NCBI GenBank assembly: GCA_035545015.1
Contig: DASZZD010000059.1
Span: forward strand, 58,864 to 122,863
DNA from: Phycisphaerae bacterium
Lineage (GTDB): Bacteria > Planctomycetota > Phycisphaerae > WQYP01
Direction: 5' to 3'
Length of the DNA stretch: 64,000 nucleotides
A program made the position numbers and the translations under genes. This document shows, piece after piece, positions 1 through 54,299 of this stretch. Position 1 is the stretch's first letter, and each line of letters begins with the position of its first letter. The notes under the pieces were generated by a model. That model saw nothing but the letters and a program-made list of their open reading frames with translations. It ran no database searches and was not told the origin of the DNA.

Positions 1-859
1 GCCCCACAAACGTCCCGCCGCAGATGAACAGGATGTTCGTCGTGTCCACCTGAATGTACTGCTGCTCCGGATGCTTCCGCCCGCCCTGTGGCGGCACATT
101 CGCCAGCGTCCCCTCCAGCATCTTGAGCAGCGCCTGCTGCACGCCTTCCCCGCTCACATCCCGCGTGATCGAGACGTTCATGTTCGTCTTGCCGATCTTG
201 TCGATCTCATCAATGTAAATGATCCCGCGCTGCGCCGACTCCAGATCGTAATCCGCGTTCTGCAGCAGCTTCAGCAGCAGGTTCTCCACATCCTCCCCCA
301 CATACCCCGCCTCCGTCAGCGTCGTCGCATCCCCGATCGCAAACGGCACGTTCAAACACCGCGCCAACGTCTTCGCCAGCAGCGTCTTGCCTGAGCCCGT
401 CGGTCCGATCAACAGCACGTTGCTCTTATCAATCTCCACCTCTTCCCCGCCCGCCGCATCCGCATGCGCCAGCCGCTTATAATGATTGTGCACCGCCACC
501 GCCATCGCCCGCTTCGCCGCATCCTGTCCGATCACGTACTGATCCATGAACTCCTTGAGCTGCCGCGGACTCGGAATCTGACCGAACATCGGCCGGCTTC
601 CGGAAACCTTCCGCTTCTCCTGCCGAAATATGTTCTGGCACAGCTCCGTGCAGTTCGAACAAATGTAAATGTCGTTCGGCCCCTCCACCATCGGCCCCAC
701 CTCCCGCGACGATTTCCCGCAAAACGAGCAGTTCGTCACCTTCCGGCCCCGAAACCCGCCCCCGCCGCCTCCGCCGCCCCCCACGCTCCCCCCGCCCGAC
801 CCGCCGATCGATCCGCCGTTCCCCACGCCGCCGCCGCCATTGCCCGGTTGATTCGCCAT
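1..859 (-). CDS. clpX: ATP-dependent Clp protease ATP-binding subunit ClpX (N-terminal ~285 aa; C-terminus lies beyond window start)
   Basis: Minus-strand translation gives zinc-finger CSFCGKS...CSNCTELC, Walker [20 protein letters not shown] and IYIDEIDKI; start MANQPG at 859, preceded by a ~35-aa Gly-rich leader. Confidence 0.9.
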
Positions 860-1027
860 GAAATCAGCTTCCTATGCCTGCGCAAGATGGACTGTGTGCG
901 CCGACAACGCCTCCCCACACGCCACGATCCGTTCCAATGTTCGCACGTGCAAAAAAGGCAAAGCCAGCGCCACTATCCATTTATCATAGAGTTTGTCGGC
1001 ATGGCCGTCCAACCGCGGCCATCTTTT

Positions 1028-4000
1028 CTACCGCTTACCGGTCATCAACGCCTCCACCTTCTCCGCCATCCCTTCCCCCCGCAGCCCCGCCGCGACAATT
1101 CGTCCGTGTGGATCGACCAGGTAAATCTGTGGAATCCCCAACGCATACGGCTCCACTTCCGAACTGCCCCACCCCGACGCCGCCGCCTGAACCCACCCCG
1201 CCCCCGTCATCCCCTCCTCCTTCACATATTCCCGGGCCTTGTCCAAATCTCTGTCAAACGTCACCCCCATCACCGCCAGCCCCTCCTTCCGCCCCGCCGC
1301 CGCCGTCGCTTTAATGTTCGGCGTCTCCTCCACGCACGGCCCGCACCACGTCGCCCAGATATCCACCAACACCCACTTCCCGCGCAACTCCGACAAACTC
1401 ACCGCCGAGCCATCCAGCGTCCGCACCGTAAAGTCCGGCGCCTCCTTCCCCACCTTCACCTCCCGCACCGCCCCCATCGACAACTCGCCCACATCCACGT
1501 TCCCGCCATCCTTCGAAACCACGAGGTGACAAATCGTTTCCCCGACCTGCGACAATCCCTGCAACTCCTCCGTATCCACATTCGCATCCGGCGTCCCCGG
1601 CGGCGCCGGAACCGAAATCCGCAGCCGCAACGAATACGTCCCCGGCGGAACATTCGTTACCCGAAACCGCCCATCCGGCTCCATCTCCACCAGCGCCCGA
1701 AACTGATGCTCGTCTGGATTGCTCTTGGGCGCCTCCGGATGCCGCACCAGCCACCCCATCTTCTCTCGCTCGCTCCACCGATTGAACTCCGCCGGCACCG
1801 CCAGCGCCGCACCCTCCGCACTCAAATGACTGTCCGCCCCGGTCCACTTGTCCGCAATCTCCGCTGGCACATCCAGTTTCCCCGTCACCGTCGCCCCGCC
1901 CACCCACTGCACCTCCGTCGTCTTCCCCGACGCAATCGCCACCGGCGCGTCGCCATACCCTAAATCGTCGCGCCACTGAATGTGCCCCTGCTGCACCCGC
2001 TGCATACGCCGAACCGTCAGCTTCCCCTCCGGCACCCGATCCAGCGTCGCCACGCCCGCATCGTCGATGGCCACTTGGCTCCAATCCATGCTCACATGCG
2101 ATGCCGACGCCATGCCGCCCGCGCCGCTCCACAGCACGAACAACGTGCCCCTCGACGGCTTGTCACCCGCCTCGATCTTCAGCCGCAACTTCCCCCACGG
2201 ACGCAGCCGAATCTCCCCCGCCTCAGACTCGCTCACCCACGCATACCCCTCATCGCCGCTCACCCACAACCAGGTGTTCTGCCCCTGCGGATCAAAAGCA
2301 AATCGCCCCGCCGCATCGGTCCGCGTCTGTTCATAGCCGGTCGCCTTGTCATCCCGCACCTCCAAATCCCCGCGCGGATCGGTGCGAGCGACAATCGCCC
2401 CCGAAACGGGTTGCCCATCCGGACCGCGCACGATGCCCTTCGTGGGAATACCTGCCTGTAGCGCCGCCGAAGCCGTCAGATCGCCGGTGTCGTCCGCGAA
2501 TGGCCCGACAATTCTGGCCACATGCCCGGCGGCGCGGATCCGCAGCCAATGCGCGGAACGGTGCATGAAAAACCACGCATTCATGACACCCTGGGAATCC
2601 GCCAGCACCGGCAAGCCGCCACTTCCGCCATAAATGTCCGGTCCGCTCACTTCCGTCGCCTGCGCATCCGAAAGTGCCGCCCCGGTCCCCGCGTCCGTTG
2701 CCTTGATGGTCACTTTGCTGACCGGTGCGCACATGATTTTGTTCTCCCCCTCCGGCGTGAGCATGACCTTACCCTTAGGCGGAAACATGCCTGGCGCATC
2801 GACATACACCTGCACCGCTTCCCCCGGCACTCCCGGCCACACGAACCGCCCGTCCGCATCGGTTTGTGTCGCCCAATCAACACCATTCCATGCGGGCGTC
2901 ACCCGCGCGCCCCCAATCCCCTTCCCCCACCGATTCACCACCTGCCCCCGCAATGGCTTGGACGCTGCCAGATGCATCGTCATCACGACCGTTTCACCCG
3001 CCGCCACGTGCGCCTTGATCACCTGCGCCGCCTGATCGGGGACCTGCACCGCGCCGCTTACCTCCCCCGGCGGCACATCTGTAAGTTCCACCTTGCCTTC
3101 ACGATCCGTCTTGCCCAGCGACTGTGCGCCGGCCATCCCATAGACGCACACGCGCGCCCCAACCGCCGCCGTTCCATCCGCGCGTGTCACGGCCATCCGA
3201 ATGCGGCCCGCTTGCTTCGCTACCAGCCGCATCTGCCGCGCCCGAAGCGCCGGCAACGCCTTCTCGCTCATGTCTACCTCAGTGGTCGGCAAATACCACC
3301 CATCACCGTGTACCGCCACATAGCAAACCGTCCCCTCTCCGATCGGACAGACGCTATGCCACATGCCTTGACCATCCGTCGTCACCGTCTCGTAGGTTTT
3401 GTCCTCCGCAAACGATCCCTCCTCCGCATACCGTCGCGCACGCCGCGCTTGAACGAGCACATGCGCCCCGCCCACCGCCTTTCCCTGCGCATCCACAACA
3501 ATTCCGCCGATTTGCTCCCCCCGCGAAAGCCGAACCTGCGATTCCGCCGGCAACGCCCGAATGCGCGGGGAATCCATCCACATCGTTTCCTGCTGAAGGT
3601 AGCCCGGTGACGAGGTTTCCATATCCCAGTCCGTCGGCTCGCGCGCCGGCAGCGGCACCTCCGCCACCCCGTCCGCCCCCGCAACCACCGATCGCGCCGC
3701 CACGCCAAAGCCATACTCCACCGTCGCCCCGCTCACCGCCTTGCCCGTCGCATCATCCACCACCGTCACCCGCATCTCCCGCTGCCCCACATCCGCCGCC
3801 CGCCCCGCCGCGCAGAACACCCACACCGCGACCGTCGCAACCGCCAGCATCGCGCCTAAACCCTTCACCGCCAGCGTTTTTCTGCCCATCGTCCGCCTCG
3901 CTCCCTTCGCCAATCGTAAAATCGCCGGAGCCGCACGCCCCGTCAGCGTCCCACTTGCCACGCGCCCCGCCAACCCCATCGGCGCCGCCTTCGCGCTCTC

Positions 4001-4561
4001 CGTCACCGCCGCCAGCCCCGCCATTGACCACGCCATCCCCTTCCTCGCCAGCTTCTTCCGCAGCCGCCCCAGCGCCCGTTCCACCTGCTTGCCCGCCCCA
4101 TCCTCCGACGTCCCCAGCGCCTCGCCCACCTCCCGCAGCGTCAGCCCCTGATAAAACCGCAGCAGCACCGCCGTGCGATCCCGCGCCGGCAATCCCATCA
4201 CCAGCACATCGATGATCCGTACGAACTCCGCCTGCTCCACGTGCTCCGCCGCACTGATGTCGCACGACCGCATGGACACCTTCCGTTCATGAATGCTTCG
4301 CCGGCGCCGGGCGCGATTGGCCGCCCGGGCCGTGTGGCACGTCGCGCGAAAAAGCCACCCGCTCACGCGCGCCCGCTTCATCCCCCTCGCCACGCGCGCC
4401 AGCAGCATGAATACCGCCTGCGTCACATCCTCCGCAGTCGCCGGATCCCCGGTCTGCCGGCGCGCAACGGCATACATCCACCCGCTATGCCGGCGCACCA
4501 GCTCATGAAACGCCTCGGCCTCGCCCGCGGCGTAACGGCCCACCAATGTCTCATCATCCAT
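1028..4561 (-). CDS. ECF-type sigma-70 factor domain fused to a TM segment, ~850-aa periplasmic beta-rich region and C-terminal TlpA-like thioredoxin domain
   Basis: ORF 1028..4624; N-terminus has sigma-70 region 2/4 (ETLVGRYAAG...LTLREVGEALG), then a hydrophobic anchor (LGAMLAVATVAVWVF) and a C-terminal WATWCGPC thioredoxin motif; start at 4561 (MDDETL) or 4624. Confidence 0.75.
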   Translation of the reverse strand: MDDETLVGRYAAGEAEAFHELVRRHSGWMYAVARRQTGDPATAEDVTQAVFMLLARVARGMKRARVSGWLFRATCHTARAANRARRRRSIHERKVSMRSCDISAAEHVEQAEFVRIIDVLVMGLPARDRTAVLLRFYQGLTLREVGEALGTSEDGAGKQVERALGRLRKKLARKGMAWSMAGLAAVTESAKAAPMGLAGRVASGTLTGRAAPAILRLAKGARRTMGRKTLAVKGLGAMLAVATVAVWVFCAAGRAADVGQREMRVTVVDDATGKAVSGATVEYGFGVAARSVVAGADGVAEVPLPAREPTDWDMETSSPGYLQQETMWMDSPRIRALPAESQVRLSRGEQIGGIVVDAQGKAVGGAHVLVQARRARRYAEEGSFAEDKTYETVTTDGQGMWHSVCPIGEGTVCYVAVHGDGWYLPTTEVDMSEKALPALRARQMRLVAKQAGRIRMAVTRADGTAAVGARVCVYGMAGAQSLGKTDREGKVELTDVPPGEVSGAVQVPDQAAQVIKAHVAAGETVVMTMHLAASKPLRGQVVNRWGKGIGGARVTPAWNGVDWATQTDADGRFVWPGVPGEAVQVYVDAPGMFPPKGKVMLTPEGENKIMCAPVSKVTIKATDAGTGAALSDAQATEVSGPDIYGGSGGLPVLADSQGVMNAWFFMHRSAHWLRIRAAGHVARIVGPFADDTGDLTASAALQAGIPTKGIVRGPDGQPVSGAIVARTDPRGDLEVRDDKATGYEQTRTDAAGRFAFDPQGQNTWLWVSGDEGYAWVSESEAGEIRLRPWGKLRLKIEAGDKPSRGTLFVLWSGAGGMASASHVSMDWSQVAIDDAGVATLDRVPEGKLTVRRMQRVQQGHIQWRDDLGYGDAPVAIASGKTTEVQWVGGATVTGKLDVPAEIADKWTGADSHLSAEGAALAVPAEFNRWSEREKMGWLVRHPEAPKSNPDEHQFRALVEMEPDGRFRVTNVPPGTYSLRLRISVPAPPGTPDANVDTEELQGLSQVGETICHLVVSKDGGNVDVGELSMGAVREVKVGKEAPDFTVRTLDGSAVSLSELRGKWVLVDIWATWCGPCVEETPNIKATAAAGRKEGLAVMGVTFDRDLDKAREYVKEEGMTGAGWVQAAASGWGSSEVEPYALGIPQIYLVDPHGRIVAAGLRGEGMAEKVEALMTGKR

Positions 4562-4645
4562 GCCCTGTTTCCCTGTCCCCATCGCCATGCCCGCTGACCC
4601 CCAAAATCCGACGCACCTTTTCAAAAATCGCGAAAAATTCCTATT

Positions 4646-5368
4646 TCAGCGATTTTCAAAGAACGCCCGCACCCACGCCGCGGCCGAATCCATCGCAAAC
4701 GGTTTGCCCGTCCAGCCCTCGGCAGTGGCAGCCGGAACGCTGATCGCCGCAATTCCCGCCGAACGCGACACCACCACCGCCGTCGCCCCCTCGCCCAGCT
4801 CCAAAGCGTAGCGAGCGTACTCCTTTTTGTGCAGACCCGTTGTCGCCCGCCGGGCAAGATCCTGCGCAACGGCCGACCATTGCTCAGCCCACACCACCAG
4901 CACGCGCTCCGCACGCCCCGTCGCCAGCAGCCGCCCCGCCGCCGTCAGCGCGCCCGCCACCGCATCCTCGGGCGCAAACGCCAGCGTTTCGCACGGCCCC
5001 TTGATGCCAAACGCAATCGCCACCGCCGCCGCGATGCTCGAATACACGCTGCGCGAAAACAACCGCGGCGATGCGAATTTTCCCCCGGCCTCAAACATGC
5101 TGTCGAGATACCCCACCGTCGCATCGATCGCCCCCCACGCGCTCACGCAGATCAATCCAATTTCTTCCCCCGAAACCTCCACCGAATCGCTCATCGTCCA
5201 CGCCTGATGGGCCGCCCGGATCGCCAGCGCCGCCAGACGTTCTTGCGCCGCCACCTTTTCCACGGGCAAAATGTCGCAGCCGGGCGCGTGGGGAGCCACC
5301 TCCGCGATCGCCGCCACCTCGTCGGTAACGATCCCCGCCCCCGCAAGATACAAGACCCGCTCCATCAC
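4646..5368 (-). CDS. Truncated beta-ketoacyl synthase-like protein lacking the TACSS active-site Cys (chain-length-factor/ApeC-like partner)
   Basis: 240 aa with KS-like GIKGPCETLAFAPEDAVAGALTAAGRLL but no catalytic Cys/His half; ATGA overlap with the upstream KS gene. Confidence 0.7.
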   Translation of the reverse strand: MMERVLYLAGAGIVTDEVAAIAEVAPHAPGCDILPVEKVAAQERLAALAIRAAHQAWTMSDSVEVSGEEIGLICVSAWGAIDATVGYLDSMFEAGGKFASPRLFSRSVYSSIAAAVAIAFGIKGPCETLAFAPEDAVAGALTAAGRLLATGRAERVLVVWAEQWSAVAQDLARRATTGLHKKEYARYALELGEGATAVVVSRSAGIAAISVPAATAEGWTGKPFAMDSAAAWVRAFFENR

Positions 5369-6618
5369 CCTTCCTCCCGCGCGAACACCAGCGCCGTGTT
5401 GTTGCCGCCAAACGCAAAATTTGTGGACATCACCGCGCGCAGAGAACGCTCGCCACCCGCGTATATATGGTTGCGCGGCACAGGAAGCCGCATCGCGGGA
5501 TCGCCATCCCCTTCCTCACTCCCCGCATTCGGTGGGATGCAATTTTCACGGAGGGCCTGAATGCACAGAATCGCCTCCACCGCTCCCGCCGCCCCAAACG
5601 TGTGCCCGGTGCAGCGCTTCGTGGAACTCACCATCGGCAGCGGCGAGATGTTGCCGAAAAGCGTCCCCAGGGCGGCGGCTTCCATGGCGTCGTTGTCCTT
5701 CGTCCCGGTGCCATGGGCGTTGATGTAACCAATGTCGGCAGCCTGCAACCGGGCCCGTGCCAACGCATCGCGCATGGCGCGAATCGCCTGAACCCCGGCA
5801 GGATCGGGAGCGGTGATATGGTAGGCATCGCACGTGACGCCAAAGCCGCGCAAATAGGCAAGGATCGGAGCGTTGCGGGCGCGGGCGTGATCCGGGTGCT
5901 CCAGAATCAGCATGCCGGCGCCTTCGCCAACGGTCATGCCCGGACGATGCGCATCGAACGGCCGGCAACCCTCCGGGGCCGTCACTTTGAGCGCGTGAAA
6001 CCCCGACAACACCACCCGGCAAAGCGCTTCACTGCCCCCCACCAGGGCAATCTCGCATTCGCCCAACGCAATCGCGTCCGCGGCCGCGCCGATCGCCATG
6101 GCGCTGCCCACACACGTCGTCAGGCACACCTCCCGCAGCCCGGGCGAACGCGCCATGCGGTGGCGCCGGGCGAGCAGTTCGCCCACTTCGTAAGGCTGAA
6201 GCCGGCGCATGAGGCGGATATCGGCGGTGTCCGGGTTCTGCCGATATTGCGCGGCGAAGCGTTCGTTTTTGTCCATGCCGCACACGGTCGTGGCGACAAA
6301 CAGGCCGATCTCCTCGCCGTCGCCTTCGCGGAAACGCTCGGGGAGGCGGGCGTCGGCGAGGGCTTCGTCGGCCGCGAGGCAGGCGAGCTGCTGCGTGCGC
6401 GACAGGGCGTTCCAAAGGCGCGGGGGCAAATCGGCGGGGCAGGGTAGGTCGGCGGCACACCGGGCGACCTTCACGGAGCGCAGCGGATGGCCGGCCTCAA
6501 TTTCGGGCCACGGTTGCAGGACGTCGCGGGCGGCGGCGACGCCTTGCCATGTCACGGCAACGCCGATGCCCTGGGCGGTGACCGCCCCCATTCCTGTAAT
6601 GGCCACCGCTGAAGTCAT
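5365..6618 (-). CDS. Beta-ketoacyl-ACP synthase (KAS I/II family, FabF/ApeO-like)
   Basis: 417 aa; Cys in TTCVGSAMAIG, His motifs INAHGTGTKDND and GHTFGAAGAVE, C-terminal NFAFGGNNTALVF. Confidence 0.85.
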   Translation of the reverse strand: MTSAVAITGMGAVTAQGIGVAVTWQGVAAARDVLQPWPEIEAGHPLRSVKVARCAADLPCPADLPPRLWNALSRTQQLACLAADEALADARLPERFREGDGEEIGLFVATTVCGMDKNERFAAQYRQNPDTADIRLMRRLQPYEVGELLARRHRMARSPGLREVCLTTCVGSAMAIGAAADAIALGECEIALVGGSEALCRVVLSGFHALKVTAPEGCRPFDAHRPGMTVGEGAGMLILEHPDHARARNAPILAYLRGFGVTCDAYHITAPDPAGVQAIRAMRDALARARLQAADIGYINAHGTGTKDNDAMEAAALGTLFGNISPLPMVSSTKRCTGHTFGAAGAVEAILCIQALRENCIPPNAGSEEGDGDPAMRLPVPRNHIYAGGERSLRAVMSTNFAFGGNNTALVFAREEG

Positions 6619-6624
6619 AAGGCG

Positions 6625-7677
6625 TCACTTCTTGATGCCGTACATGTCGGGCGTGGCGGGGAGGATGGTGATCGATTCGATGACCGGCTTGGGTCCCTTG
6701 ACGGTGCCGTTGTCGTCGGAGACGGGGGTTTTGGCGATTTCGTCGACGACGGGCATGCCGTCGATGACCTGTCCGAAGGCGGTGTATTGGCCGTCGAGGT
6801 TGCTGTTTTTGGCGTGCATGATGAAGAACTGGGAGCCTGCGGAGTTGACGTCCTGGGAGCGCGCCATGGAGAGCACGCCGCGATCGTGTTGTTTGTCGGA
6901 GAACTCGGCGGTGATTTCGTAGCCGGGGCCGCCGGTGCCGGCGCGTCCCTCGACGTTGCCGGTCGAATCGCCGCCCTGGATCATGAAACCTTTGATGATG
7001 CGATGGAAAACGCTGCCGTCGTAGAACTTCTGGCGGGCAAGATTGATGAAATTGTCATCCGTGTGCGGAGCGACGTCGTAGGCAAACGTGACCTTGATGT
7101 CACCTTTATCCGTTTTGATGACGGCATATTGGAGCGGAACGATGTGCAGCACCGTGGGGCTGTAGCGCTGCAGGATGTCTTTTCGCTGGGCGTCCGGCAG
7201 GCCGCCGATTTCATTCTTGAATTTTGCGAATTCCTTGGCGCCCTGGCCGGGGTTGTAGAGGTTTTCGATCACGAGGGGCTCGGCATCTTTCCAGACGAGG
7301 ATGTAAGTGCCGCCGGAGCGGATGTCGGGATAGATGTTGTCGAGATTGATTTTGGTGGGATCGGCGCCGGGCGTTCCCGTTTTCGGATCGACCTTCTGGC
7401 CGTCGAAGGTGTAGAGGGTGAAGGCGGGCATGCCTTTGTCGTCGAGCGCATCTTTCGCGGGAGTGTAACCGTCCTTCAGGGCGGAGGCGTCATCGGCGAG
7501 GTGCACCGCTTTGGTGGGACCGTTGTAGAAGCCGAGGAGGAGGGGTTCATCGGGTTTGTCGTACCATTTGACGGGAAGGACGACATCGGCGCGGGCGGCG
7601 GTGGCGACGGCGCCGAGCAGAAGGGAAGAAAAGGCCGTTGCGAGGAATGCTTTTGTGAATTTATGCCGGGCGAGCAT
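6625..7677 (-). CDS. Secreted cyclophilin-type peptidyl-prolyl cis-trans isomerase with ~170-aa N-terminal extension
   Basis: C-terminal HRIIKGFMIQGGD...FFIMHAKNSNLDGQYTAFGQV cyclophilin fold; signal peptide MLARHKFTKAFLATAFSSLLLGAVATAARA (start at second Met, 7677); 7-bp gap to the KS gene. Confidence 0.85.
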   Translation of the reverse strand: MLARHKFTKAFLATAFSSLLLGAVATAARADVVLPVKWYDKPDEPLLLGFYNGPTKAVHLADDASALKDGYTPAKDALDDKGMPAFTLYTFDGQKVDPKTGTPGADPTKINLDNIYPDIRSGGTYILVWKDAEPLVIENLYNPGQGAKEFAKFKNEIGGLPDAQRKDILQRYSPTVLHIVPLQYAVIKTDKGDIKVTFAYDVAPHTDDNFINLARQKFYDGSVFHRIIKGFMIQGGDSTGNVEGRAGTGGPGYEITAEFSDKQHDRGVLSMARSQDVNSAGSQFFIMHAKNSNLDGQYTAFGQVIDGMPVVDEIAKTPVSDDNGTVKGPKPVIESITILPATPDMYGIKK

Positions 7678-7895
7678 GAGGGTCTCCGGAAAAGAGTTGA
7701 TGTGAATGGGAGATTGTATGCGGAAAGTTGCGCAAGGGGGAGGCTGGCGACGGCGGAGTGCGTTGTGTGTGACGGTTTTGCGGGAACTCGAGCGACAGAC
7801 ATCCCACAATGCATGAAATCTTACGCAAGCGCTTCTCCTGAGAGGCTGCCACATGTGGTTGATACGAAGACGGAAGCACTTCTTGCGACGTTGCG

Positions 7896-9497
7896 TTAGT
7901 GTGGGGCGGCTGCGGCTTGTTTGGCGGCGGCGCGCTGGTAGTAGGCGTAGCGGTCTTTGCCGCCGAGGGTGGGCAGGTCGATGTCGTTGCCAAATTGTTT
8001 GGAGAGGTCGAGGAAGGCCTGGTATTGGCGGCAGAGGAAGGCGGCGTTGAGGAGGGCGCTGCGGTCCTTGAGGTAGAGCGGCCGGTCGTCGGTGAGGCGG
8101 GACTTGTCGGAGAGGACGACATTGTAGGCGGCGTGGAGGTCCTGCCAGACCTGGGGGTCCTGGTAGAGGGAACCGGGGGGATCGACGAAGCCGTTGAGGC
8201 TTTGATAGACGGAGACGATGGTGAGGGAGATGCGGTTACGGGGGGTTCCGGTTTTGATGCATTGGCGGCCGAAGGTGACGGCGTCGGAGGGGTCGTTGTG
8301 CCACTGGGGGGAGAGGTAGAAGGCTTTGTTATCGCAGGCCTGGAAGTCGTCGGGGTCGGCGAGCATGGCGCGTTGGAACCAGGATTCCATGGTGTCGTCG
8401 CCGAGCTGGAGGTCCATGGAGAGGCGGACCATGTAGTCGGAGGCGGCGGCGTCGAAGGGGTCTTCGTGCCAGGCGGCCTCGGCGGCGTCGCGGGCTTTTT
8501 TGCAGCGTTCGTCGAAGAGTTGCCAGCCCTGGTCGGAGACGGTGTCGGCATATCCGCCGCCGCGGGCGACCCAGCCCCATTCTTCATAGAGGACGGCGAG
8601 GGCGACATCGCGTGCGGCGGTATGGGGGAGGACTTGATCGAGAACGGGTGTGAGTCGCGGGATGGCGGCTTCGGGGCCGGGCTGGTGGACGAGGGCGAGG
8701 CTGATGGCGAGGACGTTTCGTTCGAGGCGGGCCTGTCCGGGATGCTCGGCGACGAAGGCGGGCAGCAGCGCCAGGACGCGGGCGAGCTCCGAGTCGCTGG
8801 TGGCCTTGACGGTGACGTTGGAGGGCCAGTGGACGGAGTTCATGCAGGAGAGCAGCCAGCGGTGGAGGATGAATTTGACGCCGTCGGAGTAGGAGGAGTT
8901 GTCGAGCGCGGCGATGGCGGGATCGAGTTGTTTGACGGCGTGGTCAAGGGCCATCTGCTCGGAATTGAGGCCGTCGATGACATAAGCGAGATGGATGGCG
9001 GGGTCGCCGGGCTGGATATTGGCGGCGGCCTGAGCATCGATGGCGGCTTTGAGGGTGGGGTAGTCGATTTTGTCTGCGGCGATAACCCGGAGGGCGGGTT
9101 CGATTTTGTCGAGGATCTGTCCGCCGGTGGGGCCGTTTTTGTAGGGTGTGAGGAGGTAACGCTGGGTCCAGGCGTCATCGCGTTTTTGGTCACTGGCGGA
9201 GCGCGCGGCGCGGAGGTGTTTGGCGAGGTCGGGGAGGTTGGCGGCGAGGACATCGCGGACGGCGGGGCCGGTGTCGGGGCTGGCGGCGGCTTCGACGAGG
9301 GGAGCGAAGGCGTCGGCGGGAAGCGAGGGGATACGTGCGGTGGCGCTGTCGCGGGAGTCTGGATTCTGGAGTTGCTGGAGAAAGGCGGGGGCGTCGAAGG
9401 AATGGTCATCCGGGGTTTGGGCGTGGGCGAGCAGGGCGAGAAGCGGGGCGAGGGTGAGGGCGAGGGCGGCGGCGGCGAATGGTGGCAGGGGTTTCAT
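7896..9497 (-). CDS. Hypothetical secreted protein (possibly DUF4034-like)
   Basis: 533-aa ORF with cleavable signal peptide MKPLPPFAAAALALTLAPLLALLAHAQ; non-repetitive composition; the opposite-strand 666-aa ORF is a Gly-rich shadow. Confidence 0.6.
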   Translation of the reverse strand: MKPLPPFAAAALALTLAPLLALLAHAQTPDDHSFDAPAFLQQLQNPDSRDSATARIPSLPADAFAPLVEAAASPDTGPAVRDVLAANLPDLAKHLRAARSASDQKRDDAWTQRYLLTPYKNGPTGGQILDKIEPALRVIAADKIDYPTLKAAIDAQAAANIQPGDPAIHLAYVIDGLNSEQMALDHAVKQLDPAIAALDNSSYSDGVKFILHRWLLSCMNSVHWPSNVTVKATSDSELARVLALLPAFVAEHPGQARLERNVLAISLALVHQPGPEAAIPRLTPVLDQVLPHTAARDVALAVLYEEWGWVARGGGYADTVSDQGWQLFDERCKKARDAAEAAWHEDPFDAAASDYMVRLSMDLQLGDDTMESWFQRAMLADPDDFQACDNKAFYLSPQWHNDPSDAVTFGRQCIKTGTPRNRISLTIVSVYQSLNGFVDPPGSLYQDPQVWQDLHAAYNVVLSDKSRLTDDRPLYLKDRSALLNAAFLCRQYQAFLDLSKQFGNDIDLPTLGGKDRYAYYQRAAAKQAAAAPH

Positions 9498-9627
9498 GAT
9501 CTCCTCCCGGGGCGAGAAAAGTGCGCGGAACGTTGGTCCCTTGGGGATGCAGACGTGTTAAAGTATGCCGCGGAAGGGATGGGGAGCAAGAGAATTCAGC
9601 AGATGCGTTTGCTGGAGGAGGTGTTGG

Positions 9628-10764
9628 ATGCGACGTGTGCAGTGGGCCTTGGCGGTGGTTGGGATGGCGCTGGCGGCGGGGGCGGTGTTTGCGCGGGGGG
9701 CGAAGCGTGCGCCGGCGGGCGACGACGCGCGTGCGGCGGCGGAGGAGGGGATGGTGAGTTTGAAGGGGCATACGGACGGGATTACGGCGCTGGCGTTTTC
9801 ACCGGATGGGAAGCTGCTGGCGTCGGGGAGCGGGGACCGGACGATCATCATCTGGGACGTGCATTCGGGGAAGCAGTTGCATCGGCTGGAGGGGCATGAG
9901 GCGGCGATCACGTCGCTGAATTTTTCGCCGGATGGGAAGTACCTGGTCTCGAGCGCGGCGGAGTCGACGATCGATTTGTGGAATACCAAGACGTGGCAGA
10001 TCGACAGCTTGTATCAGGATGTGGATCCGGTGCTGACGGTGCGTTTTCTGGGGGCGTCGGACGGGTTCGTGTCGTTTGGGCCGTGGGCGCTGAGCATGTG
10101 GCAGGTGGGGAGCGGGGCGGCCAAGGCGCGGCGGATGTCGCCCGATGCGTTGCTGTCGGCGATGACCATCGCGAACGATGAGATTGTTTACGGGGACCGC
10201 AACGGGAACCTGGCGGTGTGGGATGGGACGGACCAGGATCCGACGGTGATTCATCGGCGGCCGAAGGCCTCGAAGGGTAGGAACTTCGTGGTGGGGTTGG
10301 GGCAGGGACGTGCGGGACATGTGATGGTGACGGATGAGGATGGGTTGTGGGATTGGGATCGGGGGACGGACAAGCTGTCGCTGGTGGCGCAGGATTGGTG
10401 GGGGGATCCGGTGGTGATGGATCATGGCAAATATGTGGCGACGGCCTATGGGGCGCGGTTGTGGCTGTGTGAGCCGGAGCTGAAAGAGGGAACGATGGTG
10501 TTCAAGACGGGATTTCCGGTGCATGCGGTGGCGGTGTCGCCGACGGGAGAGTATTGGGCGTATGGCGGCCGCGGGGAGTGGTCGAGCATGACGGAGTGGC
10601 GTCGGGGGTATGCATCGGAGGTGCGGCTGCTGAAGGTGGGGAATCTGGCGCATGCGTTTGCGTTGGCGGCGGCGCAGGGAGGAGAGGAGGAAGGGACGGG
10701 CGCCGGGCCCGCGCGGATGGTGGGGTGGGACGAGGAGGGGGGAGGGGACGCGGGGACGCCGTGA
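9628..10764 (+). CDS. WD40-repeat protein with signal peptide
   Basis: LKGHTDGITALAFSPDGKLLASGSGDRTIIIWDV and LEGHEAAITSLNFSPDGKYLVSS WD repeats; signal MRRVQWALAVVGMALAAGAVFA from Met at 9628. Confidence 0.75.
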   Translation: MRRVQWALAVVGMALAAGAVFARGAKRAPAGDDARAAAEEGMVSLKGHTDGITALAFSPDGKLLASGSGDRTIIIWDVHSGKQLHRLEGHEAAITSLNFSPDGKYLVSSAAESTIDLWNTKTWQIDSLYQDVDPVLTVRFLGASDGFVSFGPWALSMWQVGSGAAKARRMSPDALLSAMTIANDEIVYGDRNGNLAVWDGTDQDPTVIHRRPKASKGRNFVVGLGQGRAGHVMVTDEDGLWDWDRGTDKLSLVAQDWWGDPVVMDHGKYVATAYGARLWLCEPELKEGTMVFKTGFPVHAVAVSPTGEYWAYGGRGEWSSMTEWRRGYASEVRLLKVGNLAHAFALAAAQGGEEEGTGAGPARMVGWDEEGGGDAGTP

Positions 10765-10822
10765 GGCGACCGGTGAGGAGGTGGCCGGTATAATCGGCGC
10801 GCGTTGTGGTTGAGGAGTTTTC

Positions 10823-11731
10823 ATGCGCGTGCTTGTGACGGGCGGGGCGGGGTTTATCGGGTCGAATCTGGCGAAGCGGCTGGAGCGGGAGGGGCATGGG
10901 GTGACGGTGCTGGATAATTTTTCGTCGGGGAGTTTTGCGAATCTGGTGGATTTCGAGGGGGAGGTGGCGAGCGGGGAACATGGGGCGAATGAGCCATGTA
11001 CGAAGTGCGAGGTGATTTTTCATGAGGCATCGATCACGGACACGACGGTGACGGATCAGTTGCAGATGATGCGGAACAATGTGGAGGGGTTTCGGCATGT
11101 CTTGGGGTGGGCGGCGCGGTGGGGGGCGCGGGTGGTGTGGGCGTCGAGCGCGGCGGTGTATGGGAATCAGCCGGCGCCGAACCGGTTGACGGACAAGCCG
11201 GAGCCGTTGAATGTGTACGGGTATTCCAAGCTGGCGATGGAGCGGCTGGCGAAGCGGTGGGCGTCGGAGCATTCGGACGTGCCGATCATTGGGTTGCGGT
11301 ATTTCAACGTGTATGGTCCCGGGGAGAAGCACAAGGGGAAGTTTGCGAGCATGATTTATCAGTTGGCGCAGCAGATGAAGGGGGGGCATCGGCCACGGAT
11401 TTTCAAGTTTGGGGAGCAGAAGCGGGATTTTGTGTCGATCGAGGATGTGGTGGCGGCGAATCTGCTGGGGATGAAGGCGGATCATCCGCCGCAGGCGGGG
11501 GTATTTAACGTGGGGAGCGGGGCGGCGCATACGTTTAATGAGGTGGTGGCAGGGTTGAACGCGGCGCTGGCGACGGCGTACGAGCCGGAGTACATCGATA
11601 ATCCGTATGCCTTTTTTCAGGTGCATACGGAGGCGGATATCACCGAGACGCGGCGGGTGCTGGGGTATGCTCCGAAGTATACGGATGTGAAGGAGGGGAT
11701 ACGGGCGTATGCGGAGGCGGGGGGGTTGTAG
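10823..11731 (+). CDS. NAD-dependent epimerase/dehydratase (ADP-L-glycero-D-manno-heptose 6-epimerase-like)
   Basis: VLVTGGAGFIGSNL Rossmann motif, YGYSKL catalytic YxxxK, RYFNVYGPGEKHKGKFASMIYQ typical of HldD-type epimerases. Confidence 0.85.
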   Translation: MRVLVTGGAGFIGSNLAKRLEREGHGVTVLDNFSSGSFANLVDFEGEVASGEHGANEPCTKCEVIFHEASITDTTVTDQLQMMRNNVEGFRHVLGWAARWGARVVWASSAAVYGNQPAPNRLTDKPEPLNVYGYSKLAMERLAKRWASEHSDVPIIGLRYFNVYGPGEKHKGKFASMIYQLAQQMKGGHRPRIFKFGEQKRDFVSIEDVVAANLLGMKADHPPQAGVFNVGSGAAHTFNEVVAGLNAALATAYEPEYIDNPYAFFQVHTEADITETRRVLGYAPKYTDVKEGIRAYAEAGGL

Positions 11732-11792
11732 GGAAAAATTGGAAAAATTGGGTCGATGGGTTCAATTGGGGAGGGCGCGGTGTGGAGGTTTG

Positions 11793-12587
11793 ATGGGATT
11801 GGTTGTGCGACAGGGTGTGTGGGTGGCGGTGGTGTTGGTGGTGGGGGGGGGGGCGGTGTTGGGTATGGGGGTGGCGCGGGGGGAGGGTGGGGATGCGGGG
11901 GGGGGGGATGCGGTGAAGGTGTTGGGGGAGCGGTTGGGGGAGATGAAGGATGTGCGGACATTGCATGCGCGGTTTGTCTGTGAGAAGGATTTGGCACTAT
12001 TGGAGACGCCGCTGGTGAGTTCGGGGGAAGTGTGGATTCGGCGGGGCGGGGAGGGGGAGAAGGAGGGCGGCGCGGGCAGCGGGGCGGCGGTGCGATTTTC
12101 GACGGAGAAGCCGTATGTGTCAGAGTTGATTCTGGTGGAGGGGAAGGTGTATGCGCGGTCGCAGCATGAGGAGTCGTGGAGCAAGAGCAATCAATCGTCG
12201 CGGCCGGGGTTGACGGCGGTGATGGGGCAGTTGGGCGGGTGGGCGACCGGGGACGCGGGGAAGGTGTCGCAGATGTACAGCGTGGCGTTGGCGGCGGGGA
12301 AGGAGGCGGAGATACCGGCGGTGCCGAAGGAGGGGGGGGAGTTGCATGTGGAGGCGGGTGGGGGGGGGAAGGGGGTGGATGTGTTCGTGTTGACGCCGAC
12401 GAATGAGGATTTGGCGAAGGCGGTGAAGAAGATCACGTTGGCGGTGGATCGGGGGACGGGGGGGCTGGAGTATATTTCGATAGAGACGGAGCAGGGGGAT
12501 GTGACGCGGTATTGGTTTGGGGATGTGGAGCGGAATGGGGAGTTGCCGAAGGATGTGTTTGAGGCGAAGGAGGGGGAGGCCCGGTGA
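11793..12587 (+). CDS. LolA-like outer-membrane lipoprotein carrier family protein
   Basis: Signal peptide from Met 11793 (MGLVVRQGVWVAVVLVVGGGAVLG); LolA-like beta-barrel pattern (LHARFVCEKDLALLETPLVSSGEVWIRR...ILVEGKVYAR); sits before the MMPL gene. Confidence 0.6.
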   Translation: MGLVVRQGVWVAVVLVVGGGAVLGMGVARGEGGDAGGGDAVKVLGERLGEMKDVRTLHARFVCEKDLALLETPLVSSGEVWIRRGGEGEKEGGAGSGAAVRFSTEKPYVSELILVEGKVYARSQHEESWSKSNQSSRPGLTAVMGQLGGWATGDAGKVSQMYSVALAAGKEAEIPAVPKEGGELHVEAGGGGKGVDVFVLTPTNEDLAKAVKKITLAVDRGTGGLEYISIETEQGDVTRYWFGDVERNGELPKDVFEAKEGEAR

Positions 12588-12647
12588 TGGCGGTAAATGG
12601 CCACGAAAAACACGAAGGGCACGAAAGACGTGGTAATTGCTATGACC

Positions 12648-13241
12648 TCAGGGGGGCGGGGGCAGCGGGGATTGGGGCTGGGTGAGTAAGACGGGGAAGG
12701 CGGCTTCTGCGGGGGAGCGCTTGGTGATGGCTTCGTCGAGGACGCGGCGGAGGGTTTCGAGGTCGATGCCGGGGAGGGCGCCGGTGGGGATGGGGATGAA
12801 GGAGTTGACGGAGACAATCAGGAGGAAGCGGGGCTTGAGGAGGGCGGTGGCGAAGTTGTACCAGGGGGTGGTCTGTGCGTGTTGGGCGTGCTCAATATGA
12901 AGCGTGTCGGCGGTGAGGCGGAGGCGGACGGGGGTGGAGACGGGAATTTCGGAGCGGCAGCGGACGGTGGCGGCGCGGATGAAGCTGATGAGGAGGGGGA
13001 GGAGGGGGGCGGCGAAGAGGGCTGTGCGCAGGAGCATGTCGGGCAGGGGGTCGGGCGCGGCAGTTGTATCCGGAGGGAAGCGGGAGACGAGGATGCTGGC
13101 GGATGTGCCGCCCGCGAACAGTAGGAAGAGGAAGATGTAGAGAACGAGGCCGGTGGTGTTGCCCCAGCGGAAACGGCGGATGATCGATTGGGCTTCGGCG
13201 AGTTCTTCGGGGGAGAGGGTAAATTCGAGGGGGATGTCCAT
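12648..13241 (-). CDS. Hypothetical membrane protein
   Basis: 197-aa ORF with two hydrophobic helices (GLVLYIFLFLLFAGG; LLRTALFAAPLLPLLISFI); no recognisable family. Confidence 0.35.
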   Translation of the reverse strand: MDIPLEFTLSPEELAEAQSIIRRFRWGNTTGLVLYIFLFLLFAGGTSASILVSRFPPDTTAAPDPLPDMLLRTALFAAPLLPLLISFIRAATVRCRSEIPVSTPVRLRLTADTLHIEHAQHAQTTPWYNFATALLKPRFLLIVSVNSFIPIPTGALPGIDLETLRRVLDEAITKRSPAEAAFPVLLTQPQSPLPPPP

Positions 13242-13339
13242 GGGGGCATTCTAGCGACGGGCGGGAGGGGAGGCGGGGGCGGGAGGGGGAGGGTTGGTTT
13301 AGAATGCGGGGGTTGTTTGGCGCGCGTGGTTGATGGAAT

Positions 13340-54273: not shown

Positions 54274-54299
54274 CATCGGCGTCCCGCCGATGTTCGGCC
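54274..54299. repeat. Palindromic 22-25-mer (copy B, direct orientation)
   Basis: gacatcggcgtcccgccgatgttc; flanks the IS3 remnant plus the TlpA-like gene together with copy A. Confidence 0.6.

What the first reader, a model, noticed from the sequence alone, without database searches (positions are those of the whole stretch)
1028..4624. ECF sigma factor covalently fused to a membrane anchor, a large periplasmic region and a TlpA-type thioredoxin domain
Residues ~20-190 are a canonical ECF sigma-70 (regions 2 and 4). The same polypeptide continues through a TM helix into ~850 periplasmic residues and ends in a thioredoxin domain with WATWCGPC. This puts sigma factor, anti-sigma-like anchor and a redox-active sensor domain in one chain. 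That suggests envelope thiol/redox sensing with release of the sigma domain by proteolysis. The locus also encodes a second TlpA-like protein (52852-53973) with a very similar active-site stretch.
Basis: partly seen in the sequence, partly recalled or inferred. Interest (0 to 1): 0.6.

Follow-up and report, generated by a model that had tools for sequence, protein, structure and literature searches.

The report
Membrane-tethered sigma factor with periplasmic thioredoxin
One gene of a Phycisphaerae (Planctomycetota) genome joins an ECF sigma factor, a membrane helix, a rigid array of beta-sandwich domains and a TlpA/ResA-type thioredoxin in one chain; it is a real, recurrent but uncharacterised variant of the known sigma factors with a transmembrane C-terminal extension.

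Summary
ORF 1028-4624 (-) is uninterrupted. It encodes an ECF sigma domain (Pfam r2 and r4 above threshold; TIGR02937 78.6 bits against a cut-off of 42.9), one transmembrane helix, about 775 residues of CarboxypepD_reg-type beta-sandwiches, and a ResA/TlpA-fold domain with WATWCGPC.

The fusion is not an artefact. An 89%-identical protein from another metagenome has the same architecture, as do at least 21 further clusters at 50% identity, including one in cultured Tautonia plasticadhaerens.

- The sigma part belongs to a large Planctomycetota/Verrucomicrobiota family. It has a conserved post-sigma4 linker (RGVxxS..AAPAGL) and one TM helix, followed by variable periplasmic domains such as TonB_C and WD40.
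- The periplasmic array plus thioredoxin is itself a conserved unit of about 910 residues. It occurs with only a membrane anchor, or fused to BlaR1-type M56 signal transducers that are paired with a BlaI repressor gene.

So the unit most likely acts as an input module, and the sigma domain is probably released by regulated proteolysis, as in IutY. Redox sensing is possible but not shown: half of the sigma-array fusions lack the thioredoxin and a third of the rest have lost CxxC.

Verdict: new variant of a known kind, moderate interest.

The parts
1028..4624 (-). Whole ORF (1198 codons from the TTG; the stop codon is 1028-1030). The likely true start is ATG M22 at 4561 (NCBI model, 1177 aa) or ATG M13 at 4588 (JGI homologue).
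4049..4516 (-). ECF sigma domain, residues 37-192. Sigma2 is residues 42-108 (window 4301-4501) and sigma4 is residues 138-190 (window 4055-4213). No sigma3 or sigma1.
   Evidence: AlphaFold2 model pLDDT 93-97 over most of it; Foldseek matches to solved ECF sigmas
3872..4039 (-). Conserved cytoplasmic linker, residues 196-251. Motif 1 is KGMAWSMAGLAAVTESAKAAPMGL (family consensus RGVxxSxAALAxxLxxxAxxAAPAGL). Motif 2 is LAKGARRTMGRK, directly before the TM helix (family consensus L.KG.LK.M...K.K).
   Evidence: predicted as two short helices plus the start of the TM helix, pLDDT 75-84; 96.4% identical to P0002
3803..3871 (-). Single transmembrane helix, residues 252-274 (AVKGLGAMLAVATVAVWVFCAAG).
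1475..3793 (-). Periplasmic array of about eight or nine beta-sandwich (CarboxypepD_reg / transthyretin-like) domains, residues 278-1050. The order of the domains is conserved along the whole length in relatives.
   Evidence: (all-beta, mean pLDDT 85.4, pTM 0.72)
1031..1474 (-). C-terminal TlpA/ResA-type thioredoxin-fold domain, residues 1051-1198. The active site WATWCGPC is at window 1334-1357 and the cis-Pro motif GIPQ at window 1127-1138.
   Evidence: (ResA, TlpA-like and DsbE structures: TM 0.78-0.88, rmsd 2.0-2.7 A)
1..859 (-). Next gene downstream on the same strand: clpX (N-terminal C4 zinc finger and AAA+ domain). It runs off the left end of the window and is separated from the fusion gene by 168 bp. 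It is listed as context only; a functional link is not shown.

Best explanation
This is a single-chain transmembrane signalling protein of a family largely confined to Planctomycetota and Verrucomicrobiota.

Anatomy:
- A complete ECF sigma domain sits in the cytoplasm.
- It is tied to the inner membrane by a conserved linker of about 55 residues and one TM helix.
- A rigid unit of about 920 residues projects into the periplasm. It consists of a beta-sandwich array capped by a TlpA/ResA-type thioredoxin domain with a WCGPC site.

Proposed mechanism:
- While tethered, and possibly folded back on its own linker, the sigma domain cannot form free holoenzyme.
- A change in the periplasmic unit makes it a substrate for periplasmic proteases. 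The change could be damage, unfolding, ligand or partner binding, or a change in the redox state of the CxxC.
- A site-2 protease then cuts the TM helix, and the sigma domain with its linker is released to direct transcription.

Shown here: the architecture, the topology prediction, conservation of every part, recurrence of the fusion, and re-use of the same periplasmic unit on BlaR1-type transducers.

Inferred only: tethering as the off-state, proteolytic release, the nature of the signal, and the regulon.
For: 1. The fusion is real and under selection.
- An independent metagenome holds an 89%-identical protein, P0002, with the same architecture.
- Identity to P0002 by region is sigma 96.6%, linker 96.4%, TM 95.7%, thioredoxin 95.3% and array 85.5%.

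2. The fusion is recurrent.
- Of the 150 best relatives among 1.84 billion representatives, 44 are sigma + TM + array fusions, and 21 of those carry the thioredoxin domain.
- One is QDV32883.1 of the cultured Tautonia plasticadhaerens. Another comes from a Gemmataceae MAG.

3. The sigma + linker + TM part is a conserved cassette used with many different periplasmic domains.
- Partners include TonB_C (24 of 120 nearest sigma relatives), WD40, FG-GAP, glyoxalase and FKBP.
- This is the pattern of an output module with interchangeable inputs.

4. The same array + thioredoxin unit of about 910 residues is fused to Peptidase_M56 (BlaR1) transducers.
- This holds for 28 of the 150 relatives.
- In the one fused member whose contig was read, a Penicillinase_R (BlaI) repressor gene lies directly upstream, and a split version of the same arrangement occurs in L007.
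- BlaR1 systems signal through their extracytoplasmic C-terminal domain (established knowledge).

5. Structure predictions.
- The AlphaFold2 model of residues 22-290 is confident (pLDDT 84, pTM 0.74), including the linker helices.
- Its sigma2/sigma4 arrangement is closer to anti-sigma-bound ECF sigmas (CnrH-CnrY rmsd 7.2 A, SigW-RsiW 9.6 A) than to RNAP-bound ones (22-28 A).

6. Experimental precedent for release of a fused sigma by Prc and RseP: IutY (PMC5411451, PMC8999054). Precedent for activation by truncation: SCO4117 (PMC8999054).
Against: - No protease site, site-2 protease gene or regulon was identified. Nothing in the window links the gene to a target.
- No anti-sigma domain is detectable, so an auto-inhibited state is inferred only from a model whose coordinates could not be inspected.
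- AlphaFold tends to predict compact sigmas in any case.
- Pinto et al. 2020 (PMC7671368) argue that planctomycetal C-terminal extensions arise by fortuitous insertion of duplicated sigma cassettes, so some fusions may have no regulatory logic.
- The periplasmic juxtamembrane segment is only about 8 residues. Site-1 cleavage would therefore have to remove folded domains.
- A covalently attached linker would remain on the sigma domain after intramembrane cleavage. If the linker is inhibitory, another step is needed.
- The census of architectures rests on simple rules (phmmer hits, hydropathy, HExxH), checked with Pfam on only 8 proteins.
Confidence: 0.55

Rival explanations
1. Thiol/redox sensor. 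The redox state of the WCGPC pair is the signal: oxidation or reduction changes the stability or the partners of the C-terminal thioredoxin domain, and this gates proteolysis and sigma release. This is a special case of the best explanation.
For: - The CxxC and the cis-Pro are intact, and the thioredoxin domain is 95.3% identical to the 89% relative, with the CxxC kept (WCVPC there).
- 14 of 21 sigma-fused thioredoxin domains keep WATWC[GA]PC.
- The domain is always C-terminal, where it could act as a cap against tail-specific proteases (inference).
- The fold matches ResA/TlpA reductases.
Against: - 23 of 44 sigma + array fusions have no thioredoxin domain, and 7 of 21 that have one lack the CxxC.
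- No CcdA/DsbD or other redox gene was found among the window ORFs scanned with Pfam (several ORFs had no hit) or among the called genes next to relatives.
- Loss of CxxC is not significantly more frequent in sigma-fused forms than in the others (7/21 against 16/101, Fisher p = 0.07), so nothing marks the sigma-fused domains as special.
Confidence: 0.25
2. The periplasmic unit is primarily an enzyme or structural envelope protein: a membrane-anchored reductase held on a rigid stalk. The sigma cassette merely replaced its N-terminal anchor. The sigma domain is either a by-product of a fortuitous insertion or reports only on turnover of the protein.
For: - The most common form of the unit has only a short N-terminal anchor (54 of 150).
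- Other N-terminal partners are enzymes, for example FGE-sulfatase in P0167.
- Pinto et al. 2020 document capture of downstream coding sequence by duplicated sigma cassettes in Planctomycetes.
Against: - The sigma domain and the linker are the most conserved parts between the two close relatives (about 96.5%).
- The sigma domain passes the ECF thresholds.
- The fusion recurs in at least 21 distant clusters.
- The other recurrent N-terminal partner is also a signal transducer (BlaR1, with BlaI). This is hard to explain by chance.
Confidence: 0.15
3. The sigma factor works while still tethered, like a ToxR/CadC-type membrane-bound regulator. It recruits RNA polymerase to promoters near the membrane without any cleavage, and the periplasmic unit modulates this allosterically or by oligomerisation.
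For: - The linker is long enough (about 55 residues) and conserved.
- No protease site or dedicated protease gene was found.
- The periplasmic unit is predicted to be rigid (pTM 0.72), which would suit mechanical or allosteric coupling.
Against: - No precedent was found for a sigma factor acting while membrane-bound. The characterised fused sigmas are activated by cleavage or truncation (PMC5411451, PMC8999054).
- The predicted compact sigma2/sigma4 state is not the RNAP-bound one.
Confidence: 0.08
4. Artefact: a frameshift, a mis-assembly or a read-through joins a separate sigma gene to a separate periplasmic protein gene.
For: The contig is a third-party assembled MAG. A split version of the related BlaR1 architecture does occur in one long-read genome (L007).
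Against: - There is no stop or frame change in 3597 bases.
- The same single ORF occurs in an independent JGI assembly (P0002), in a complete genome of a cultured strain (P0184), and in at least 20 other clusters.
- The TM helix needed to put the thioredoxin outside the cell lies exactly at the junction.
Confidence: 0.02

Closest known systems
IutY of Pseudomonas putida (ECF243), a sigma/anti-sigma hybrid of cell-surface signalling
   Same: One polypeptide with an N-terminal ECF sigma domain, a single TM helix and a periplasmic C-terminal domain. The sigma domain is released by Prc and RseP (PMC5411451, PMC8999054). This is the best mechanistic analogue.
   Different: IutY carries a FecR-type anti-sigma domain and periplasmic domain and works with a TonB-dependent receptor. 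Here no FecR domain is found, the linker is unrelated, the periplasmic part is a beta-sandwich array plus thioredoxin, and no conserved receptor gene is nearby.
Actinobacterial ECF48/ECF52/ECF53 (for example SCO4117)
   Same: An ECF sigma with a long C-terminal extension that contains TM helices and an extracytoplasmic domain. Activation by proteolytic processing is proposed (PMC8999054).
   Different: Those proteins have a zinc-finger (ZAS) anti-sigma domain before the TM helix and carbohydrate-binding or proline-rich ectodomains. The linker here has no Cys or His and gives no zf-HC2 hit.
Planctomycetal ECF sigmas with variable C-terminal extensions (ECF57 / 'ECF01-Gob'; the clade analysed by Pinto et al. 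2020)
   Same: The same phylum and the same general layout. WD40-bearing relatives (P0014, P0015, P0020, P0023) share the post-sigma4 linker and a single TM helix in my alignment. A diversity of Pfam domains in the extensions is described in PMC7671368.
   Different: ECF57 is described as having WD40-type extensions and two conserved cysteines in sigma2 and sigma4 (PMC8999054). This protein has Ala and Arg at the columns where the WD40-type relatives carry Cys and has no WD40. Its nearest sigma relatives are TonB_C fusions of 350-470 aa. I could not run the ECF-group HMMs.
BlaR1/MecR1-type M56 sensor-transducers with a BlaI/MecI repressor
   Same: The same periplasmic array + thioredoxin unit is the C-terminal ectodomain of M56 transducers in relatives. 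Both are one-chain transmembrane signalling proteins whose output involves proteolysis.
   Different: This protein has no M56 protease domain and only one TM helix. Its output is a sigma factor, not cleavage of a repressor.
TlpA / ResA / CcmG (DsbE) / Etrx extracytoplasmic thiol-disulfide oxidoreductases
   Same: A thioredoxin fold with the family's insertion, a CxxC, a cis-Pro, and an extracytoplasmic, membrane-anchored location.
   Different: Scores are far below the equivalog cut-offs (ResA 63.6 against 170; TlpA 63.2 against 230). The active site is the classical thioredoxin WCGPC. The domain sits at the end of an array of about 775 residues and is covalently linked to a sigma factor.

Membership tests
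ECF (group 4) sigma-70 factors | Sigma2 and sigma4 regions present and above the curated thresholds | tested here: met
   Sigma70_r2 29.5 bits (gathering score 24), Sigma70_r4 33.9 (24.1), r4_2 33.4 (25.7). TIGR02937 78.6 bits against a cut-off of 42.9.
ECF (group 4) sigma-70 factors | No sigma3 or sigma1.1/1.2 regions | tested here: met
   No Sigma70_r3, r1_1 or r1_2 hit at E <= 0.1. The best structural matches are solved ECF sigmas such as SigW, CnrH, AlgU and SigE.
ECF (group 4) sigma-70 factors | Binds core RNAP and directs transcription from specific promoters | not testable with these tools
No autoregulatory promoter motif is shared with four homologous loci.
Sigma/anti-sigma hybrids of the IutY/FecI-FecR type (ECF243) | A FecR-type anti-sigma domain between the sigma domain and the TM helix | tested here: not met
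   No FecR (PF04773) or other anti-sigma Pfam hit anywhere in the protein at E <= 0.1.
Sigma/anti-sigma hybrids of the IutY/FecI-FecR type (ECF243) | Genetic linkage to a TonB-dependent receptor that has a signalling domain | tested here: not met
   The neighbours are clpX, two KAS-like genes and a cyclophilin gene. A TonB-dependent receptor exists at 23116-25545 but it is 18 kb away. No such gene lies next to relatives.
Sigma/anti-sigma hybrids of the IutY/FecI-FecR type (ECF243) | Release of the sigma domain by Prc and RseP | not testable with these tools
   Inferred by analogy only.
ECF48/52/53 sigma-ZAS-TM fusions | A zinc-binding anti-sigma motif (HxxxCxxC, zf-HC2) after sigma4 | tested here: not met
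   Residues 196-251 contain no Cys and no His, and there is no zf-HC2 hit.
ECF57 (planctomycetal, WD40-type extensions) | A C-terminal extension rich in WD40-like repeats | tested here: not met
   No WD40 hit; the extension is CarboxypepD_reg plus Redoxin.
ECF57 (planctomycetal, WD40-type extensions) | Two conserved cysteines, one in sigma2 and one in sigma4 | tested here: not met
   At the alignment columns where P0017, P0018, P0020, P0023 and P0025 have Cys (..GVCRR....LCxLEG..), the query has Ala (YAVARR) and Arg (LLRFYQG).
ECF57 (planctomycetal, WD40-type extensions) | Score against the ECF-group HMM of the ECF classification | not testable with these tools
   The ECF Hub/ECFfinder group models are not available here, and the supplement of PMC7826278 is not held.
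PVC family of membrane-tethered ECF sigmas (defined here, not a curated family) | A post-sigma4 motif RG[VI]xxSxxxLxxxLxxxxxxAAPxGL, followed about 30 residues later by L.KG.LK.M...K.K and a single TM helix | tested here: met
   The query has KGMAWSMAGLAAVTESAKAAPMGL ... LAKGARRTMGRK, then the TM helix at 252-274. The regular expression for motif 1 matches 79 of the 120 listed nearest sigma relatives. G175, P194 and L197 are nearly invariant in alignment A1.
TlpA/ResA/DsbE-type extracytoplasmic thiol-disulfide oxidoreductases | A thioredoxin fold of the TlpA/ResA type | tested here: met
   Foldseek TM 0.78-0.88 and rmsd 2.0-2.7 A to ResA (1su9, 1st9), to Bacteroides TlpA-like proteins (4grf, 3fkf) and to DsbE (3gl3). 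Redoxin and AhpC-TSA are above the Pfam thresholds.
TlpA/ResA/DsbE-type extracytoplasmic thiol-disulfide oxidoreductases | A CxxC active site and a cis-proline loop | tested here: met
   WATWCGPC at residues 1090-1097 and GIPQ at 1163-1166.
TlpA/ResA/DsbE-type extracytoplasmic thiol-disulfide oxidoreductases | Equivalog-level identity with ResA, TlpA or DsbE | tested here: not met
   ResA NF002854 63.6 bits (cut-off 170); TlpA NF047696 63.2 (230); dsbE TIGR00385 45.8 (123).
TlpA/ResA/DsbE-type extracytoplasmic thiol-disulfide oxidoreductases | Reductase activity, with electrons supplied by CcdA/DsbD | not testable with these tools
   No CcdA/DsbD hit among the window ORFs scanned with Pfam (several ORFs had no hit). 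The rest of the genome was not available.
BlaR1/MecR1 M56 transducers | A Peptidase_M56 domain with HExxH within four TM helices | tested here: not met
   No M56 hit and a single TM helix in the query. The M56 domain is present in relatives that share only the periplasmic unit.

The most novel reading that the evidence does not exclude
Planctomycetota and Verrucomicrobiota possess a plug-and-play envelope-signalling system. A conserved periplasmic 'probe' of about 910 residues, a rigid beta-sandwich scaffold capped by a WCGPC thioredoxin, is wired to either of two proteolysis-based outputs: a membrane-tethered ECF sigma, or a BlaR1/BlaI pair. The redox-dependent stability of the C-terminal thioredoxin cap would decide whether periplasmic proteases can degrade the probe and trigger intramembrane release of the sigma. 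That would be a previously undescribed way to couple the periplasmic thiol-redox state directly to transcription. The conserved post-sigma4 linker would act as a built-in minimal anti-sigma element.
Probability: 0.2. Interest if true: 0.7.

Novelty: new variant of a known kind. Interest (0 to 1): 0.45.

Why it matters
ECF sigmas with transmembrane C-terminal extensions are abundant in Planctomycetota, but none from this phylum has been characterised, and their extensions have been discussed as possibly fortuitous.

This example shows three things:
- A defined, recurrent architecture in which every part is under purifying selection.
- A conserved linker + TM cassette that is shared across many different ectodomains.
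- The same ectodomain re-used on BlaR1-type transducers.

Together these argue that the extensions are real input modules. They also give a concrete, testable system, because the architecture occurs in the cultured, fully sequenced Tautonia plasticadhaerens.

If the thioredoxin cap gates release of the sigma domain, this would be a new route from the redox state of the envelope to gene expression. If not, the protein remains a useful model for how a covalently tethered sigma is switched on.

Tried and rejected
- **Frameshift or mis-assembly.** Rejected: the ORF is uninterrupted and the same chain occurs in independent assemblies and in a complete genome.
- **A known anti-sigma domain in residues 196-251.** There is no Pfam or NCBIfam hit, and a profile of 35 family linkers found nothing in the PDB at E <= 10.
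- **Two-TM topology, which would put the C-terminus in the cytoplasm.** Rejected for the query. The post-sigma4 stretch stays below the hydropathy threshold, only one segment exceeds 1.4, and all ectodomain types in the family are extracytoplasmic ones.
- **ECF57 membership.** The two diagnostic cysteines and WD40 are absent. ECF-group HMMs are not available.
- **Conserved gene neighbourhood or regulon.** Five loci with sigma-array-thioredoxin genes share no neighbour. Acyltransferase (PF01553), DegT and KAS genes each recur in only 2 of 5, which is too weak to use. clpX lies downstream only in the 89% relative, which is too close for synteny to be informative.
- **Autoregulatory ECF promoter.** No GGAAC..CGT-type motif is shared upstream of five genes. 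The consensus scan gave only a sigma70-like site in front of clpX.
- **Paralogues in the window.** There is no second sigma or array, only the distant TlpA-like gene.
- **Genome-collection scan.** It gave one weak match to the redoxin domain only, so the organism's own genome and close relatives could not be examined.
- **Enrichment of CxxC loss in sigma-fused forms.** Not significant (p = 0.07).
- **Linker-sigma contacts in the AlphaFold model.** They could not be inspected because coordinates are not exposed.

Full report
**1. Observation**

The minus-strand ORF 1028-4624 is open for 1198 codons.
- Pfam finds Sigma70_r2 (residues 42-108) and Sigma70_r4/r4_2 (138-190), all above their gathering scores. 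It also finds four stretches of CarboxypepD_reg (109.6 bits), and Redoxin and AhpC-TSA at 1057-1183.
- NCBIfam's ECF superfamily model TIGR02937 scores 78.6 bits against a cut-off of 42.9. The ResA, TlpA and DsbE models match the C-terminus but far below their equivalog cut-offs.
- A hydropathy scan finds one hydrophobic segment only, at residues 252-274. The sequence KGARRTMGRK precedes it, which predicts sigma inside and the C-terminal 920 residues outside.
- WATWCGPC is at residues 1090-1097 and the cis-Pro context GIPQ at 1163-1166.
- The TTG at 4624 is probably not the start. NCBI's model of the identical protein (P0001, 'MAG TPA: Phycisphaerae bacterium', on a 127-kb contig) begins at M22. 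The JGI homologue begins at M13.

**2. The fusion is not an artefact and is under selection**

P0002, from an unrelated JGI metagenome, is 89% identical and has the same single-chain architecture. Identity by region is 96.6% for sigma, 96.4% for the linker, 95.7% for the TM helix and 95.3% for the thioredoxin domain. It is only 85.5% for the array, and 76-77% in the middle of the array. Both ends of the protein, and the piece that joins them, are therefore the most constrained parts.

**3. The sigma half is a cassette**

I aligned the N-termini of the relatives and searched with residues 22-290. Both show a family signature directly after sigma4:
- RG[VI]xxSxAALAxxLxxxAxxAAPAGL (here KGMAWSMAGLAAVTESAKAAPMGL);
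- a short Ala/Gly-rich stretch;
- a second motif, L.KG.LK.M...K.K (here LAKGARRTMGRK);
- a single TM helix.

The nearest sigma relatives (40-46% identity) are proteins of 350-470 residues. In 24 of the 120 listed, the ectodomain is TonB_C. Other members carry WD40, FG-GAP, glyoxalase, FKBP or CarboxypepD_reg domains. Where sources give names, nearly all are Planctomycetota or Verrucomicrobiota: Phycisphaerae, Gemmataceae, Humisphaera, Tautonia, Opitutus and Limisphaerales.

The linker has no Cys or His, gives no hit to any anti-sigma family, and as a profile matches nothing in the PDB.

AlphaFold2 with a 117-sequence alignment models residues 22-290 confidently (pLDDT 84.2, pTM 0.74). The linker forms two short helices plus the TM helix, at pLDDT 75-84. 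Foldseek places the model closest to ECF sigmas crystallised with their anti-sigmas: CnrH-CnrY at rmsd 7.2 A, SigW-RsiW at 9.6 A, and AlgU-MucA and SigE-RseA at 10-12 A. It is far from RNAP-bound sigmas, at 22-28 A. This fits a closed, linker-occupied state. It is weak evidence, because I could not read the contacts.

**4. The periplasmic half is a module of its own**

An exhaustive phmmer search of 1.84 billion representatives gave 1271 proteins at E <= 1e-30. In most of the 150 best, one alignment stretch covers query residues about 280-1191 at 25-31% identity. The domain order is thus conserved from end to end and is not a variable repeat number.

AlphaFold2 models the 921 residues with mean pLDDT 85.4 and pTM 0.72. 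The model is all-beta up to about residue 1050 and then takes a thioredoxin fold. The C-terminal domain superposes on ResA, Bacteroides TlpA-like proteins and DsbE at 2.0-2.7 A. The array resembles Ig-like arrays of adhesins and pilins.

I sorted the 149 relatives other than the query's own identical copy (P0001) with simple rules (phmmer against the query's parts, hydropathy, HExxH):

| Architecture | Number |
|---|---|
| Short N-terminal anchor + array + thioredoxin | 54 |
| M56-like four-TM N-terminus + array | 28 (26 with thioredoxin) |
| Sigma + TM + array | 44 (21 with thioredoxin, 23 without) |
| Other N-terminal domains + array + thioredoxin | 21 |
| Short N-terminal anchor + array, no thioredoxin | 2 |

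Pfam confirmed the following on a sample of eight proteins:
- Peptidase_M56 in P0195, P0207 and P0235;
- sigma regions in P0150 and P0171;
- FGE-sulfatase in P0167.

The M56 fusion P0195 is preceded, with a 4-nt overlap, by a Penicillinase_R (BlaI-type) gene. In a 4.27-Mb contig the same arrangement occurs split into BlaI, M56, a small ORF and array + thioredoxin.

One sigma-array-thioredoxin member is QDV32883.1 of the cultured Tautonia plasticadhaerens, which UniProt automatically names 'Thiol-disulfide oxidoreductase ResA'.

**5. How much does the thioredoxin matter?**

The CxxC is intact here, and in the close relative it reads WCVPC. Of the 21 sigma-fused thioredoxin domains, 14 keep WATWC[GA]PC and 7 have lost the cysteines. 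Among non-sigma forms, 85 keep it and 16 have lost it. The difference is not significant (Fisher p = 0.07).

Together with the 23 sigma-array fusions that have no thioredoxin at all, this shows that the array is the obligate partner of the sigma cassette and the thioredoxin is an optional cap. Redox sensing is therefore a possible reading for this protein, not a demonstrated one.

**6. Context**

- Downstream on the same strand, after 168 bp, lies clpX (1-859), with its own sigma70-like promoter match.
- Upstream are two KAS-like genes (4646-6618) and a cyclophilin gene.
- Five loci with sigma-array-thioredoxin genes share no neighbour.
- No common promoter motif was found.
- The window holds no second sigma or array.
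- The second TlpA-like gene (52852-53973) is 31% identical in the thioredoxin domain and shares the WCGPCVEE stretch. It lies 48 kb away in a compositionally distinct island.

**7. Mechanism**

Shown:
- a complete ECF sigma covalently tethered by a conserved linker and one TM helix to a rigid periplasmic unit;
- the cassette-like behaviour of both halves;
- re-use of the same ectodomain on BlaR1/BlaI systems, whose ectodomain is the sensor (established knowledge).

Inferred:
- the tether, perhaps helped by the linker, keeps sigma off;
- a change in the ectodomain exposes it to periplasmic proteases;
- a site-2 protease then frees sigma.

The precedents are IutY, released by Prc and RseP (PMC5411451, PMC8999054), and SCO4117 (PMC8999054).

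One speculative refinement follows from the position of the thioredoxin. It is always the C-terminal cap, so its redox-dependent stability could decide whether tail-specific proteases gain access.

Rivals are listed separately: a pure redox sensor; an enzyme with a fortuitously captured sigma (Pinto et al. 2020, PMC7671368); a sigma that acts while tethered; and an artefact.

**8. Comparison and novelty**

The kind is known. ECF sigmas with regulatory, TM-containing C-terminal extensions are described (PMC7826278, PMC8999054), and planctomycetal ECFs with diverse extensions have been analysed (PMC7671368). This protein fails the defining features of ECF243/IutY (no FecR domain), of ECF48/52/53 (no ZAS) and of ECF57 (no WD40, and no conserved Cys pair).

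I found no description, in the literature that could be searched, of any of the following:
- the sigma-array-TlpA architecture;
- the conserved PVC linker;
- the sharing of this ectodomain with BlaR1-type transducers.

It is a new variant of a known kind. It is already present in databases under automatic names but is uncharacterised. Interest is moderate (0.45).

**9. In passing**

The window shows an extraordinary GC skew that depends on position and is independent of gene orientation. Third-codon-position skew reaches -0.8 to +0.8. This remains unexplained.

Noticed in passing
whole window, 1-64000; sign changes at about 5.6-6.2 kb, about 30-34 kb and about 52.6-54.4 kb: The GC skew is enormous and varies smoothly along the window (1-kb windows range from -0.45 to +0.53).

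- It depends on position, not on gene strand. GC skew at third codon positions of Pfam-supported genes, expressed on the + strand, runs: -0.58 (sigma fusion), +0.06 (KAS), +0.73 (gene at 7896-9497), about +0.7 (9.5-25 kb), -0.2 (30-35 kb), -0.55 (36-42 kb), about 0 (53 kb), +0.8 (AddB, AKR, YmdB).
- G excess goes together with T excess on the same strand.
- The profile is sawtooth-shaped. It rises quickly at about 6 kb and about 53 kb, 47 kb apart, and declines slowly in between.
- Five other Planctomycetota loci have |skew| <= 0.08.
- DnaA-box-like 9-mers are more frequent than in shuffles (12 against 4.2) but do not cluster at the jumps.

The shape resembles origin-centred 'N-domain' skew, or a gradient set by time spent single-stranded, but on a scale not expected for a bacterial chromosome. 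Unexplained.
   Followed up: partly
window 1-859 (-): clpX (zinc finger CSFCGK..CSNC plus AAA+ domain) lies directly downstream of the sigma-fusion gene on the same strand, as it does in the contig of the 89% relative. ClpXP degrades the cytoplasmic remnants left by intramembrane proteolysis in other ECF systems. Here the linkage could be chance: the relative is too close for synteny to be informative, and other family members lack clpX nearby.
   Followed up: partly
window 52600-54400, containing the gene at 52852-53973 (+): The second TlpA-like gene consists of an anchor, about 230 helical residues and a thioredoxin domain with WGTWCGPC. It sits in a 1.8-kb island of lower G+C (0.56-0.58) and near-zero skew, exactly between a strongly negative and a strongly positive skew domain. 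This may be a recent insertion.
   Followed up: partly
window 4646-17608: A run of envelope and lipid genes: two KAS-like genes (one a Ketoacyl-synt_2-type partner), a cyclophilin with a long N-terminal extension, a 533-aa secreted protein with no Pfam hit, a WD40 protein, an NAD-dependent epimerase, a LolA-like protein, and a 1422-aa MMPL + acyltransferase (AAT) + TPR fusion. The set is reminiscent of aryl-polyene or lipid-export clusters.
   Followed up: no
window 22389-25545 (-): A TonB_C-containing ORF and a TonB-dependent receptor ORF overlap as listed (22389-24020 and 23116-25545), so one of the starts is over-extended. The TonB_C protein is not sigma-fused, although TonB_C is the commonest ectodomain among the nearest sigma relatives.
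   Followed up: no
L007 6464-10484 (ENA contig_3768, 4.27 Mb): A BlaI-type repressor gene, a 290-aa M56 gene, a 101-aa ORF and an 827-aa array + thioredoxin gene lie in a row. This looks like a split, or frameshifted, version of the single-chain M56-array-thioredoxin proteins.
   Followed up: no
P0017, P0024 (relatives): Gemmata-type sigma + TM + CarboxypepD_reg proteins end in a different thioredoxin-like domain (Thioredoxin_7 / Thioredoxin_2, with the motif YCGWC). Thioredoxin-fold caps may therefore have been attached to sigma-tethered arrays more than once.
   Followed up: no
window 1001-1022: An 8-bp-stem hairpin (ATGGCCG..CGGCCAT) lies immediately after the stop codon of the fusion gene. 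The T-run lies on the + strand, so the scan scores it as a terminator for the opposite strand, not for the fusion gene.
   Followed up: no
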